Of a stretch of DNA of 64,000 bases, positions 3,364 through 51,780 are shown piece by piece. A program made the position numbers and the translations under genes. Each line of letters begins with the position of its first letter. The stretch's first letter is position 1. The notes below the pieces were generated by a model. It worked only from the letters and a program-made list of their open reading frames with translations, was not told the origin of the DNA and did no database searches. The stretch is from contig OX597817.1 of assembly GCA_951406725.2 (NCBI GenBank), positions 82,770,001 through 82,834,000 of the forward strand, read 5' to 3'. This stretch comes from Octopus vulgaris. Its lineage: Eukaryota.

Positions 3364-3369
<6 letters not shown>

Positions 3370-4080
3370 CTCTACCTCTACCTTTCTCTTTTCTCTCCCC
3401 CCGTGACCGGTGTTTGGCCAAGCCTAACCTTTCTTTCTTGGTTCGGCCGTCGTCCGTGTAACATCTATATTCCTCCCTGTGCCTGTAAAATCTTGTATCC
3501 CTGCCGTAAGGTTTTACTTCCACACACGCGCCAACTTAATTTAATTCGTCCTTAGTCGAAAGACACCTGTTGTTATGTCCTGTTATTTGTATTTGTGTAA
3601 CATTCTTCGTTTTCTTCCGTCCTTGTTTGCATATACATTCGCTGCTTTCTTCCAAGGAATCGTTCTTAGCTTAGTTCTTCCTTGGGGCTGGCCAGATCGG
3701 AGCAATCCCGAGTATAACCAGCCGAAATTGCAAAGATAATCTTGAACTCGACTGAGGAAAGAAAACTCCGAATGACCCGTCCTTGTTTCCTTGTCTCATC
3801 TCCTGGATGATTTTTTGTCCCTTTTTTGTATCCTCTGCCTGGATGTTTTGCGTTCTTGACCCATTTCCCTCCGGTCTTTCATAATGTGACCTCGTGTATA
3901 CTGTTGGCGATTTTTTCTCTGTCTTCCCTTCTCTGGATCATTCTTTCTCCTATGTTTCCGACGAAGAGCTCCGCTCGAAACGTTAAACCCTCCTTCTTTC
4001 CTTCTTTCCTGGACATCCAATAATATATTTTTTCCACGTCCTCGCGTTGTTGTGTTTTTTTGTGCTATCTTGTTTGGATA

Positions 4081-4083
<3 letters not shown>
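3364..4083 (+). mobile_element. Penelope-like non-coding remnant between (TA)n tracts with a minimal HHR-like motif
   Basis: GTTT-CCGACGA-A-GAGC-TCC-GCTC-GAAA-CG-TT-AAAC at 3954-3988; (TA)n flanks. Confidence 0.5.
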
Positions 4084-4119
<36 letters not shown>

Positions 4120-4161
4120 ATATACATATGTGTGTATATATATGTATATATTTATATGTAT

Positions 4162-4234
<73 letters not shown>

Positions 4235-4238
4235 TATA

Positions 4239-4287
<49 letters not shown>

Positions 4288-4331
4288 TTATATATGTACA
4301 TATGTATATATACACATACACACATACACAC

Positions 4332-4394
<63 letters not shown>

Positions 4395-4396
<2 letters not shown>

Positions 4397-4725
4397 CCAA
4401 TGGTTTCTGAATAATATACCGTCCTCAGGGCTGGACAACCGCCGGCTAGAGATAGCAGCTTACTCGACTATACTCACAGTATGTAAATATAGAAGTGACA
4501 GACACGTAATGTGTGAAATAGTTTTAAATCTCTAAATGCGATCTAATTAGTAAGTACACTTCATAGTAAAATCTATTTACCAACATAAGGTGGCAGCCCT
4601 GCGTATAACCATATTACTACCTTTTAACCTCAGGAAAACATATTTCCCAACTAGTTATCGACGCACAACCTGTGTCTGAAATATACTGTGAGCAAGGGTG
4701 CGTACTGCTCCCTCCTAGCCACTAG

Positions 4726-4728
<3 letters not shown>
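4395..4728 (-). mobile_element. (TA)n-embedded insert whose minus-strand 3' end is an HHR truncated at the cleavage triplet
   Basis: Minus strand: AGCC-CTGAGGA-CGGTATATTATTCA-GAAA-CCATTGG-TC, followed directly by TATTTATATA microsatellite. Confidence 0.6.
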
Positions 4729-4761
<33 letters not shown>

Positions 4762-4787
4762 TTATATACATGTATATATATACTTAT

Positions 4788-4862
<75 letters not shown>

Positions 4863-4943
4863 TCCCGGGTTGATTCGGGGTTAACCACAGTAAATAAGGT
4901 ACTCAATACATAGCAGAGTAAAATTAATTTATTATATAGAAGG

Positions 4944-4994
4944 AGCTTCTACAGGACTAGAACTGTTTCATTCAAGAGAAATCTTCAGGAAGCT
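4944..4994 (-). ncRNA. Type I hammerhead ribozyme (left arm copy)
   Basis: Reverse complement of 8621-8671. Confidence 0.8.
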
Positions 4995-5609
4995 AGTTAA
5001 CAAGAATTGTATTGGCATTTATACATTTAGGCAGGTTTATAGGGGTGGTGGTGGGTGACTTTTTGGGGGTAGGAATAGCCCAAAAAAATCATACTTGGGG
5101 GAGTGGTCAAGGAATCAGTGGTAAATTAGATAGAAGAATAAATAAAAGAATAAAAAAAGAATTAAAAAAATATTAAAAAAATAATAAAATATATAGAAGA
5201 ATAGAGTTTTAGGTAAATAAGGAAATTCTCACTTATACCTATACACATATGTATACATATATACACACACACACACACACATATACATACACACATACAT
5301 ACACACACACCCATATATATATATATATATACATATACACACACACATATACATACATATATCTACACATATACATATATACATATATATATACATATAC
5401 ATACATACACATATACATGCATATACATATACACACACATATGTATATATACACACACACGACCACACATACACATACACACAAAAAAATATATACATAC
5501 ACACACATACACATACACACATACACACACATATCCACATACACACATGCACACACAACACACAAGTCCCTATATACTCATATATACATATACACATATA
5601 TGTATGTAT

Positions 5610-5650
<41 letters not shown>

Positions 5651-5701
5651 TATACATACATATGTGTACCTATTCACACACATATATGCATGTATACACA
5701 C

Positions 5702-5732
<31 letters not shown>

Positions 5733-6198
5733 CACATACATATGTGTACCTATTCATACCTACACATACACACATATATACATACAATTACAAACCCATT
5801 CCCTAATTTTAATTTTATTATCTTCATTTATTACTTTTGTTATCTTTGACCGCTGGTCACATGCATCTTGGCTAGGACAGCTAGTCCCTTTTATCTTTCT
5901 ACTTGAGCACAAGCACTCACTCACGCACGCACACTCATTAGCACGCACACACACTCTCATTCATACACTCATACACATACACGCACGCACGCGTTATATT
6001 CATACATACATACATCTACATACATACACGTATATACACATACGTACGCGTACCTACAGATTCATGTCTACAATCTTAGAAGACTAGTCTATACATATAC
6101 ACCAAATATATATACACACATACATATACACCTACATACAAATACATACATACATATATATACACACATATATATATATATACACATACACATACACC

Positions 6199-6236
<38 letters not shown>

Positions 6237-6407
6237 TACATATATATATATACATATATATACACATATCCGCATACATACATACATACATACATACACC
6301 CAAACATACATACATATATACACACATACACACACCCACACGTATACATATACATACATACACGCGCATGCATACACATACAAATACATACACATACACA
6401 TATACAT

Positions 6408-6452
<45 letters not shown>

Positions 6453-6626
6453 CATACATATACATACATACATATACATATATACACACACACATACATA
6501 CACATATACACATACACGCACATACACATATACATGCGTACCCTTACACACACACTCACACGCGCATCCATATATACACATGTATGTGTATGTGTGTGTA
6601 TGTATATGTATGTATATGTGTGTGTA

Positions 6627-6925: not shown

Positions 6926-7429
6926 GTGTGTGTAAGTTTATATGTATGTATCCGTCTGTATAATAGGTAACTGCACGTATATATACTTAATATTTATTAT
7001 TTATTATTTATTATTTATTATTTATTATTTTTTGAGTATGCACGTATGAATAACTGCACGTATATATATTTTATTACTTATTATTTGAGTATGCATGTAA
7101 GTATGAACATAAGGAGTGGCGTGTGTGTGTGTGTGTATGTGTAAGCATAGATTTTTGTATACTTTTACGCATGTGTGTACTTATGTGTATATATGGATGC
7201 GCGTGTGAGTGTGTGCAAGGGTACGCATGTATATGTGTATGTGCGTGTATGTGTATATGTGTATGTATGTGTGTGTGTATATATGTATATGTATGTATGT
7301 ATATGTATGTATATGTATACGTGTGGGTGTGTGTATGTGTGTATATATGTATGTATGTATGGGTGTATGTATGTATGTATGTATGTATGTATGCGGATAT
7401 GTGTATATATATGTATATATATATATGTA

Positions 7430-7475
<46 letters not shown>

Positions 7476-7938
7476 GGGTGTATGTGTATGTGTGTATATA
7501 TATATATATGTGTGTATATATATGTATGTATGTATTTGTATGTAGGTGTATATGTATGCGTGTATATATATTTGGTGTATATGTATAGACTAGTCTTCTA
7601 AGATTGTAGACATGAATCTGTAGGTACGCGTACGTATGTGTATATACGTGTATGTATGTAGATGTATGTATGTATGAATATAACGCGTGCGTGCGTGTAT
7701 GTGTATGAGTGTACGAATGAGAGTGTGTGTGCGTGCTAATGAGTGTGCGTGCGTGAGTGAGTGCTTGTGCTCAAGTAGAAAGATAAAAGGGACTAGCTGT
7801 CCTAGCCAAGATGCATGTGACCAGCGGTCAAAGATAACAAAAGTAATAAATGAAGATAATAAAATTAAAATTAGGGAATGGGTTTGTAATTGTATGTATA
7901 TATGTGTGTATGTGTAGGTATGAATAGGTACACATATG

Positions 7939-7983
<45 letters not shown>

Positions 7984-8620
7984 ATACATGCATATATGTG
8001 TGTGAATAGGTACACATATGTATGTATATGTGTATATATATATATATATATGTGTGTATACATACATATATGTGTATATGTATGTATGAGTATATAGGGA
8101 CTTGTGTGTTGTGTGTGCATGTGTGTATGTGGATATGTGTGTGTATGTGTGTATGTGTATGTGTGTGTATGTATATATTTTTTTGTGTGTATGTGTATGT
8201 GTGGTCGTGTGTGTGTATATATACATATGTGTGTGTGTATATGTATATATGTATATGTGTAGATATATGTATGTATATGTGTGTGTGTATATGTATATAT
8301 ATATATATATATATGGGTGTGTGTGTATGTATGTGTGTATGTATATGTGTGTGTGTGTGTGTGTATATATGTATACATATGTGTATAGGTATAAGTGAGA
8401 ATTTCCTTATTTACCTAAAACTCTATTCTTCTATATATTTTGTTATTTTTTTAATATTTTTTTATTCTTTTTTTATTCTTCTATCTAATTTACCACTGAC
8501 TCCTTGACCACTCCCCCAAGTATGATTTTTTTGCGCTATGCCTACCCCCAAAAAAGTCCCCCACCACCACCCCTATAAACCTGCCTAAATGTATAAATGC
8601 CAATACAATTCTTGTTAACT

Positions 8621-8671
8621 AGCTTCCTGAAGATTTCTCTTGAATGAAACAGTTCTAGTCCTGTAGAAGCT
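8621..8671 (+). ncRNA. Type I hammerhead ribozyme (right arm copy)
   Basis: AGCTTC-CTGAAGA-TTTC-TCTT-GAAT-GAAA-CAG-TTCTAGTC-CTG-TA-GAAGCT: 6-bp stem I, CUGANGA/GAAA core, 4-bp stem III, GUA triplet; U-U at the base of stem II. Confidence 0.8.
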
Positions 8672-8683
8672 CCTTCTATATAA

Positions 8684-8714
<31 letters not shown>

Positions 8715-44057: not shown

Positions 44058-45090
44058 TCAGCTCATCCCATAAGTTCCGTCCGATTTTACCTTTTTTAAA
44101 ATTGAATGAAATTTAATAGTATTTTAGAATTTCTAATGGAATTAAACATTATTTTTATGCATTTTTGTACATTTAAACTAATTAAATATTATTTTACAGA
44201 ATAATAGAATTAAAATTTCTTTGATTAAAACCCTTTCTAACATGGAAGTATCCAAAGAGCATTTGAGGCACATAATGATTTATGAGTACAAAAAATGGAA
44301 ACTCTGCAGCCGAAGCGACTCAAAACATACAGTCAGTTTATGGGAAATGATGCTTGAATGAAAGAATTTGCAGAAGAGGGTTTGCAAAATTCAGAAGTGG
44401 AGATTTCAGCCTTGAAGATGAAAATCAAATAGAAGTCCAGTTGAGATTGGTGATAAGCTCCTTGAGGTATTACTTGAAGAAAATCCTGCATTTTCAGTTG
44501 AAGAATTGGCAATAAACCTTAGTTAAAACCATACAACTGTCGATCATCATCCTCAAAAACTTGGAAAGGTTCCTAAACTTGGAAAACGGGAGCCTTATGA
44601 ATTGTCTGAAAGCAACCGCAAATCTCGAGTTGACATCTGCTTTTCTCTCCATTCACGCGAACTCATTTCATCCTTTTTGGACAGACTTGTGAATGGTGAC
44701 GAGAAATGGATCTTCTGTAGAAATGTTAAACATCGTAAACAGTGGCTTGGTAAAAGGGAAAAAGCTCAACCCCAACTGAGAAGGGAACTTCATGGGAAAA
44801 ATGTTCTTCTCTCTATCTGGTGGGATTGCAAAGAAGTAATTCAAGTTGAATTGTTACCAATTAATGCAACAATCAATGCTCAAGTCTACTGCCAGCATTT
44901 AGAACGTTTGAACCAAACTTTGAAGAAAAAAAGGCCTGCTTTAATGAATCGAAAAGGAGTGATATTTCATCAGGACAATACGTGACCCTACACCGCAAAT
45001 ATCACATTACAGAAGATAGAAGAGCTTGGTTGGGAAAAAAATTCCTCATCGAACTTATTCTCCCGACCTAACTCCTTCAGACTACCATTT
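44058..45090 (+). mobile_element. Mariner transposon, 3'-truncated, pseudogenised transposase
   Basis: Starts MEVSKEHLRHIMIYEY at 44242; ORF 44602-44985 with GDEKWI...WWDCK...IFHQDNT; then YSPDLTPSDYHL; TA at the left end. Confidence 0.9.
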
Positions 45091-50330: not shown

Positions 50331-50449
50331 AAAATTTATATTATGATATATTCTCTGAATTCAAATACTGCCCTTTCCGAATGAGACGATCTTACTAGTT
50401 AGGACTGATAAAAATGAGGCAGAATGAGGCGATCAGCCACCTCGTCGCC

Positions 50450-50511
<62 letters not shown>

Positions 50512-50530
50512 GATGATGATGATGATGATG

Positions 50531-50572
<42 letters not shown>

Positions 50573-50632
50573 GTAATAATAATGATAATGATGATGATGA
50601 TGATAAAAATAATAATAATAATAATAATAATG

Positions 50633-50670
<38 letters not shown>

Positions 50671-50676
<6 letters not shown>

Positions 50677-51780
50677 CTGCAAAAATATCTACTTCAGAAG
50701 GAAGGAAAACTGATCCAGATAGCGGCAAAACACGAGCAAAACAAAAAACTGTTCTCAGTATTTAAGGAAGCTGACAAATACAAACAAGAAATCATACCAC
50801 CTAATAAACATGAAGAAGAAGAAGAAGAAGATGAAGAAACAACAAAAGCTATAAAAAAAATGAAATCCAAACTAAAAATAGAACAGCAACGAACCATGAT
50901 AAAACGATGGCAAGAAAAGCCCCTTCATGGTAAATACTGGACTAAACTAAACGCAAAAGAAATAGACAAAGAAAAATCCCAGCAATGGTTGAGAAGCTCA
51001 GGACTCAAAGCAGAAACAGAGGGATTTTTAATTGCAGCACAAGACCAAAGCCTCCCCACCAGAAATTACCAAAAACATGTAATGAAAAGAAATATTACAA
51101 GTAACTGCAGAATATGTGGAGATGGACAAGAAACAATAAATCATATTATCTCTAGCTGCCCAGTCCTGGCTAAGAAGGAATATATTCACAGACATGACAG
51201 AGTTGGAACTTACATACATTGGAAGCTATGCCAACATTATGGAATAACAACAGAAAAAAGATGGTATAGGCACACACCAGAAAAGGTCACAGAAAACGAG
51301 AAAGCAACCATACTCTGGGATATGCCGATACACACAGATAGAGAAATTAAGGCCAACAGACCAGATATAGTTGTCAGAGACCATGAAGAAAAAAAATGCT
51401 TTCTAATTGATGTATCAGTACCGGCAGATGACAACGTGTCTCTAAAAGAAATGGAGAAACTCTCAAAATACAAAGACCTGGAAATAGAGGTAACTAGAAT
51501 GTGGAATCTGAAAACAGAAACAATTCCTATCATAGTAGGTGCATTAGGCATGATAAAAAAATATTCAGACAAATACATAACAAAAACACCAGGACTTACA
51601 AACACATATAACATACAGAAAATTGCACTACTGGGCACTGCACACATCCTACGCAGAACACTTTCCATACAATAACCATCAGAGCATCACAACAAATCAC
51701 AGCACAAACCCAAGGCACACAGAGCTGTGCTCGGTAGTAAAGTGAAAGCACGCTATAAAAATAAAAATAAAACTACTGAA
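50671..51780 (+). mobile_element. Young 5'-truncated Dong/R4-like LINE in (AAT)n
   Basis: Frame open from 50671 to the stop at 51675; (AAT)n on both flanks; short 3' UTR. Confidence 0.92.
50860..51675 (+). CDS. Retrotransposon C-terminal region: CCHC zinc knuckle plus restriction-like endonuclease (fragment)
   Basis: CRICGDGQETINHIISSCP, RHD, NRPDIVVRD...FLIDVSVP...EKLSKY, GTAHILRR. Confidence 0.8.
   Translation: MKSKLKIEQQRTMIKRWQEKPLHGKYWTKLNAKEIDKEKSQQWLRSSGLKAETEGFLIAAQDQSLPTRNYQKHVMKRNITSNCRICGDGQETINHIISSCPVLAKKEYIHRHDRVGTYIHWKLCQHYGITTEKRWYRHTPEKVTENEKATILWDMPIHTDREIKANRPDIVVRDHEEKKCFLIDVSVPADDNVSLKEMEKLSKYKDLEIEVTRMWNLKTETIPIIVGALGMIKKYSDKYITKTPGLTNTYNIQKIALLGTAHILRRTLSIQ

What the first reader, a model, noticed from the sequence alone, without database searches (positions are those of the whole stretch)
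4395..4728. Insert that terminates exactly at a hammerhead cleavage triplet
Seen: on the minus strand CTGAGGA...GAAA-CCATTGG-TC is followed immediately by TA microsatellite, and the 3' strand of stem I is absent. Inference: the integrated cDNA may have been primed at the 3' end of the upstream cleavage product, so ribozyme cleavage defined the RT start. Alternatively stem I was simply deleted.
Basis: partly seen in the sequence, partly recalled or inferred. Interest (0 to 1): 0.72.

Follow-up and report, generated by a model that had tools for sequence, protein, structure and literature searches.

The report
Cut-to-cut copy of a hammerhead retrozyme
This is an old, decayed copy of a known kind of small mobile repeat that carries a predicted self-cutting RNA; it stops at the predicted cut site, but nearly all sister copies run past that site and end elsewhere, so self-cutting is likely at most a rare starting point for copying.

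Summary
In detail: 4395 is the hammerhead's C17, followed by TATT and (TA)n. The insert is one 355-nt unit of a non-coding 351-357-bp hammerhead repeat family (animal retrozyme, 7 subfamilies, 86% identical to its subfamily majority). Sister copies continue with a 6-nt strand that pairs and covaries with stem I, not with GGCT. Ends do not cluster at GTC: 198 of 281 arms end 161-180 or 221-240 nt past the cut, and only 1-2 of about 185 unbiased ribozyme sites stop at it (1.7 expected as background). These ends, inverted arm pairs and microsatellite targets are Penelope-type footprints. New for this copy: it also begins 6-9 nt after the previous cut site, so it spans cut to cut. Three other arms end at the cut, and in two of them the partner arm ends at the base of stem I. 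A rare end-to-end copy of a self-cut monomer is therefore about as likely as chance. The scan has already reported the family-level pattern for other retrozyme families, three of them in this genome. Cleavage and expression are untested.

The parts
4395..4730 (-). One unit (positions 7-357) of a 357-bp non-coding hammerhead repeat, subfamily A; 86% identical to the subfamily majority, with internal deletions of 4 and 11 nt
4395..4434 (-). Type I hammerhead, decayed: stem I 5' strand 4434-4429 (position 2.1 changed), core CUGAGGA 4428-4422, stem II 4420-4409 (pairs broken), GAAA 4407-4404, near-palindromic stem III 4404-4396, C17 at 4395
4391..4394 (-). TATT: ambiguous junction (impure microsatellite, or first 4 nt of the stem I 3' strand with one change)
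4727..4730 (-). 5' junction at unit position 7-10, with TA microhomology to the target; the 6-nt stem I 3' strand (positions 1-6) is the missing terminal piece
4717..4720 (-). GGCT (unit 17-20); predicted to pair with AGCC at 4447-4444 in the extension of the helix I arm, not in proximal stem I
   Evidence: (circular fold of the majority units)
4557..4576 (-). First usual 3'-end site of the family (unit 161-180), passed through in this copy
4505..4516 (-). Second usual 3'-end site of the family (unit about 225-236), passed through in this copy
4084..4394 (.). Compound (TA)n array at the 3' end; likely insertion target, shared with a neighbouring hammerhead element
4728..4860 (.). Compound (TA)n array at the 5' end

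Best explanation
The insert is one nearly complete unit of a non-coding, hammerhead-bearing 351-357-bp repeat family (an animal retrozyme) that was likely pasted into a TA microsatellite by a Penelope-type reverse transcriptase and endonuclease. Shown: family copies are one or two head-to-head arms of up to about 2.4 units; they end mostly at two internal sites about 173 and 234 nt past the cut and read through the cut site. Inferred: the enzyme normally starts inside an uncut or re-ligated (circular) RNA, so cleavage does not define the usual start. Inferred for this copy: it runs from 6-9 nt after one cut site to 0-4 nt after the next, which is most simply a rare end-to-end copy of a self-cut linear monomer, started at its free 3' end and joined to the target through the TA at unit position 7-8. 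The identity of the element is near certain (about 0.9); the route of this one copy is about even.
For: Family and tandem junction. Stem I covariation in 33 sites chosen without using the ribozyme: 5 of 6 stem I pairs change on both sides, 88% of cells paired, 0 of 500 shuffles reach the covariation score. 3' ends: 121 of 281 arms at 161-180 and 77 of 281 at 221-240, in all 7 subfamilies; 35 places genome-wide show the first site followed by microsatellite. 148 of 281 arms have an inverted partner; 30 of 33 pairs with two usual ends use one site each (P about 2e-7). About 190 of 197 arms that reach the cut from downstream cross it. The two turns of one array share 164 departures from the majority, against 17-35 expected. 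RT plus GIY-YIG elements with hammerheads and downstream ends occur in the genome. For this copy: only 4 of 280 other arms are 348-357 nt long, while 75 of 280 reach 348 nt. L116/L124 and L277 end at the cut, and their partner arms end at stem I position 2.1 (+2 and +0).
Against: Cut-ended arms are not enriched: 1 of 187 arms against 2.6 expected in 12 nt; 1-2 of about 185 unbiased sites against 1.7 expected. 5' ends are not significantly enriched at the cut (5 against 2.5, P=0.10). Both junctions of this copy are blurred by microhomology, and 6-9 nt are missing at the 5' end. 74 of 281 arms have unusual 3' ends, 21 of them against a microsatellite, so odd ends are common. The paired-end pattern rests on 2 of 3 cases noticed after the fact, and a search for arms ending at position 2.1 before a microsatellite found no family member. 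No homology tied the family to a particular autonomous element in 35 partly overlapping loci. In the anole element, cleavage was dispensable in vitro and no reads began or ended at the cut (PMC11167929).
Confidence: 0.5

Rival explanations
1. Same element and same carrier, but the ends are background: copying started at an unusual internal point through TA microhomology, or a normal array lost its last 170-230 nt by deletion into the microsatellite, and the 5' end fell near the previous cut site by chance.
For: Cut-ended arms match the background rate. Unusual ends against microsatellites are spread along the unit. Internal deletions near the junction occur (L072, L123, L202). With roughly 1,200 ribozyme sites in the genome (rough estimate), about one cut-to-cut copy is within what chance could give.
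Against: It needs an independent event of about 1-2% at the 5' end (4 of 280 arms are 348-357 nt), and it does not explain the matching partner-arm ends in L116 and L277. No remnant of unit 5-173 lies in the flanking array.
Confidence: 0.4
2. One full turn of a circular template: copying began at the AT-rich junction, perhaps of a variant lacking positions 1-6 (TATT occurs at both ends), and stalled on meeting its own start.
For: TATT at both junctions. The stop rate by length is 0.0071 per nt at 320-357 and 0.0023 at 358-395.
Against: The dip was noticed after the fact, is affected by anchor selection and includes a triplicated locus (L102). 71 of 280 arms are 360 nt or longer. No second copy of such a variant was found.
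Confidence: 0.07
3. One reading: ribozyme cleavage defines where reverse transcription starts in this family.
For: This copy and three other arms end 0-4 nt past the cut.
Against: 198 of 281 arms end at two internal sites; 87 of 89 sites read through; no enrichment at the cut.
Confidence: 0.03

Closest known systems
Animal non-LTR retrozymes (Cervera and de la Pena 2020, PMC7229834; Li, Clavereau and Pollet preprint 10.64898/2026.07.22.740005)
   Same: Non-coding tandem unit of about 350 bp (mussel 350-390, axolotl 330 and 350), GC below 50%, one type I hammerhead per unit, palindromic helix III, mismatch at the base of helix II as in axolotl HHR_Amex2, solo monomers known.
   Different: Arrays here reach only about 2.4 units. 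The two fixed internal 3' ends, the asymmetric two-armed insertions and the ends relative to the cut site are not reported in the parts I read. C instead of U at core position 4 in five subfamilies. Circles and cleavage were not tested here.
Penelope-like elements (Neptune and Poseidon clades) with hammerheads in the pseudo-LTR (PMC4209133, PMC8557442, PMC11167929)
   Same: Partial tandems, inverted 5'-truncated arm, two alternative 3' ends (tail), AT-rich or microsatellite targets, extra nucleotide after A9, internal start of reverse transcription downstream of the hammerhead.
   Different: No ORF; the unit closes on itself at 351-357 nt; the two ends are about 60 nt apart rather than the 30-40 nt described; no sequence link to a specific autonomous element was found.

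Membership tests
Animal non-LTR retrozyme | Type I hammerhead in each unit | tested here: met
   Core conserved with N7 variable; stem I pairs 1-6 are 82-91% paired and pairs 7-8 under 8% in 45 sites chosen without the ribozyme; covariation. The window's own copy is decayed.
Animal non-LTR retrozyme | Head-to-tail units of 150-450 bp | tested here: met
   Units of 351-357 bp; arrays up to about 860 nt.
Animal non-LTR retrozyme | Non-coding, GC below 50% | tested here: met
   Longest stop-free frames 69-116 aa, not shared in strand or frame; GC 40-45%.
Animal non-LTR retrozyme | No LTR, primer-binding site or polypurine tract | not tested
   No LTR-like layout seen in the arm maps; no search for a primer-binding site or polypurine tract was made.
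Animal non-LTR retrozyme | Self-cleavage in vitro | not testable with these tools
   Needs transcription assays.
Animal non-LTR retrozyme | Expressed as linear and circular monomers | not testable with these tools
   No reads were available. Majority units fold stably as circles (z -5.6 to -9.1; 27 of 106 consensus pairs change on both sides), which is a prediction only.
Autonomous Penelope-like element | RT plus GIY-YIG ORF | tested here: not met
   The unit closes on itself. Matches among 5' flanks appear to be mostly inverted family arms, judged by eye, and no shared coding flank was seen.
Penelope-mobilised element | Two alternative 3' ends, inverted arms, microsatellite targets | tested here: met
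Penelope-mobilised element | Homology to the pseudo-LTR of an autonomous partner | tested here: inconclusive
   None in 35 partly overlapping loci picked from 148 GIY-YIG matches; the two family-like hits there (L250, L243) look like separate insertions.

The most novel reading that the evidence does not exclude
Besides its two usual internal start sites, the Penelope-type enzyme sometimes copies the self-cut RNA from the nick itself: one arm starts at the cleaved 3' end (position 17) and the other at the paired base opposite (position 2.1), and one-armed events give cut-to-cut copies like this one. That would be a genomic record that these hammerheads cleave in the germ line and that the cut RNA is a transposition template.
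Probability: 0.3. Interest if true: 0.6.

Novelty: new member of a known kind. Interest (0 to 1): 0.3.

Why it matters
The role of hammerheads in Penelope-like elements and retrozymes is described as unclear (PMC8557442), and cleavage was dispensable in the one in vitro system (PMC11167929). This family gives a genomic answer: about 99% of ribozyme sites are read through, so the cut is not the normal start and the usual template is likely uncut or circular. The few cut-ended copies define a sharp test of whether cut RNA is ever used. The insert itself is an old dead copy with no evident function.

Tried and rejected
Rfam: only microsatellite-driven miRNA hits among the 150 of 197 rows listed for the window; nothing in the insert. 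No second copy in the window. GGCT as the stem I partner: rejected. L031 as a cut-ended copy: rejected, it is interrupted and resumes. L123: internal deletion. Of 13 other places from the cut-plus-microsatellite patterns, 2 are family arms (L277, L281), 2 are ambiguous short matches (L275, L278) and 9 are unrelated. L287-L289 belong to another repeat and L292 is unrelated. Apparent 5'-end clusters at unit 36, 51 and -14 were an unmodelled subfamily, G. The first copy-number estimate was biased by de-duplication and was redone. Pattern for arms ending at position 2.1: 1 hit, judged unrelated from its matched letters. Sequencing runs: no RNA holder listed. Look-alikes in the scan by sequence: none. 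Paper searches: 'octopus' + 'retrozyme' listed 2 papers, seen as listings only, neither about such a family by title or abstract start; 'retrozyme' + 'target-primed' + 'circular RNA' + 'inverted' gave 0. The library lacks most subscription papers, and supplements were not seen, so this does not prove the pattern is unpublished.

Full report
Observation. The minus strand reads CCAGCC-CTGAGGA-(13 nt)-GAAA-CCATTGG-TC with C17 at 4395, then TATT and a TA array. The insert runs between two TA arrays (4084-4394, 4728-4860), has no second copy in the window and has no Rfam match. That the animal is an octopus is my inference from recalled SINE sequence and genome size; no call names it.

Family. A DNA search of the own genome gave 83 matches from 40 scored of 639 candidates, many with query end 342 followed at once by query start 3: the insert is one unit of a tandem repeat. 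Two exact anchors gave 139 and 270 matches, with 2 and 0 in the reversed controls; the first 100 of each were listed, and I held 93 and 94 distinct sites. Seven subfamilies of 351-357 bp, 69-89% alike, were resolved. The window copy is subfamily A at 86% identity, against a median of 89%. There is no shared ORF and GC is 40-45%. The number of ribozyme sites is roughly 1,200, with wide error (6 of 64 independent sites carry the first anchor).

Ribozyme. Stem I is the 6 nt directly after the triplet, and it covaries across subfamilies. In 45 sites chosen by an anchor outside the ribozyme, pairs 1-6 are 82-91% paired and pairs 7-8 under 8%; 20 of 45 keep an intact core. On 33 of those 45 sites (I left out heavily gapped, truncated and repeated ones), 5 of 6 stem I pairs change on both sides and 0 of 500 shuffles reach the covariation score; relatedness inflates that control. 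Helix II is 3 bp with a basal mismatch, helix III is palindromic, and position 4 is mostly C in subfamilies A-E. GGCT lies at +17 to +20 and is predicted to pair further out in the same arm; majority units fold as stable circles. In the window copy position 2.1 and helix II are mutated, so it is predicted to be dead.

Where copies end. Of the 93 sites of the first anchor, 3 are unrelated and 1 is the window. Of the other 89, 87 read through the triplet, L031 is interrupted and resumes, and L116 ends at +2. Of 100 listed sites (of 228) of a third anchor, read by eye, 4 are unrelated, 2 continue into a shared variant sequence, and at most 1 (L275) ends at the cut. Among 281 de-duplicated arms, 121 end at unit 161-180 and 77 at 221-240, against 5.7 and 3.3 expected from the background rate; 1 other arm ends at -2 to +9 against 2.6 expected. 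Genome-wide patterns found 35 places with the first usual site before a microsatellite. Looser patterns at the cut gave only the window, L116, L277 and L281 as clear family arms. 5' ends are not enriched at the cut (5 against 2.5 at 0 to +2, P=0.10; 10 against 13 at -5 to +10), and about 190 of 197 arms cross it.

Carrier. 148 of 281 arms have a head-to-head partner. 30 of 33 pairs with two usual ends use one site each. Repeated turns share private variants (164 against 17-35 expected). 137 of 281 3' ends abut a microsatellite. Partial tandems, inverted truncated arms, tails and microsatellite bias are the described Penelope-type structure (PMC8557442, passages). Internal initiation at two sites, dispensable cleavage and a faint band from 3'-end priming were shown for the anole element (PMC11167929, parts 1-2 of 4). 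The genome holds RT plus GIY-YIG elements, one with many intact 781-aa frames. L250 has a hammerhead with the same C4 and flanking mismatch, an identical inverted arm and ends about 140 and 175 nt past its cut. No specific partner was identified. Mobilisation by such an enzyme from an uncut or circular RNA is inference; it was proposed in PMC4209133 (parts 1-2 of 4), PMC7229834 (passages and Discussion) and the 2026 preprint (parts 1-3 of 5). Supplements were not seen and may bear on insertion ends.

This copy. It starts at unit 7-10 and ends at 0 to +4, so apart from two internal deletions only the stem I 3' strand is missing. Lengths of 348-357 nt occur in 4 of 280 other arms, while 75 of 280 reach 348 nt. 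That favours an end-to-end copy of a cut monomer by about 5-10-fold after discounting the missing 5' bases (my estimate). In L277 the two arms end exactly at C17 and at position 2.1; in L116 both are shifted by +2; L281 does not show this. None of these arms crosses an upstream cut site, but they are short. Against this, cut-ended arms are at background frequency, junctions are blurred, odd ends are common (74 of 281), and one search found no further position-2.1 ends, although it required a microsatellite that neither known case has. I put the cut-monomer route at 0.5 and chance or deletion at 0.4.

Earlier notes of the scan describe the same two-armed, two-start pattern in other hammerhead repeat families, three of them in this genome. 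My end maps were made before that look-up and the pair count in the same turn; I did not test their families.

Verdict: a real feature and a new member of a known kind. The general claim is refuted; a rare cleavage-linked route is open but weakly supported. Interest 0.3.

Noticed in passing
window 3870-4083 (+), hammerhead core at 3958: A different repeat with a minimal hammerhead ends about 100 nt past its predicted cut in the same TA array, tail to tail with the insert.
   Followed up: partly
window 3365-3866 (+): A very abundant repeat of about 500 bp with sharp ends (7,050 candidates, best scored copies 86-91% identical); not identified.
   Followed up: partly
window 4861-6535 (-) and 7227-8690 (+), hammerheads at 4988 and 8627: Large inverted pair of a third hammerhead element with near-identical, microsatellite-rich arms that end about 30 and 90 nt past the predicted cut in TA arrays; looks like a young two-armed Penelope-type insertion. 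Three hammerhead families thus sit within 5 kb.
   Followed up: partly
L290 and L291 (around 670-850): Variant of subfamily G in which the triplet is followed by a different shared sequence that cannot complete stem I, yet L291 is a two-armed insertion: copying apparently without a cleavable ribozyme.
   Followed up: partly
L245-L249: Young Penelope-like family with many intact 781-aa RT plus GIY-YIG frames; L245 shows a hammerhead-like motif with the U3-A8 core variant, read by eye, and ends about 65-70 nt downstream in (TA)n.
   Followed up: partly
L250 1321-4483: Young Penelope-like element with an identical 766-bp inverted arm and a hammerhead with C at position 4 and a U-U mismatch at the base of helix II.
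   Followed up: partly
L287-L289: Another repeat family with a similar hammerhead-like stem III, ending in TA arrays about 240-260 nt downstream.
   Followed up: no
L031 633-1500: An insertion of about 870 bp interrupts a family copy right at the cleavage triplet.
   Followed up: partly
family-wide: Arm lengths thin out just above one unit (6 stops at 358-395 nt against 22 at 320-357), perhaps a stall after one turn of a circle; noticed after the fact and subject to sampling bias.
   Followed up: partly
window 50428-51675 (+); 44527-44985 (+): A 415-aa stop-free frame resembling the C-terminal part of a non-LTR retrotransposon protein, and a mariner-like transposase fragment (both labels from recall, not searched).
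   Followed up: no
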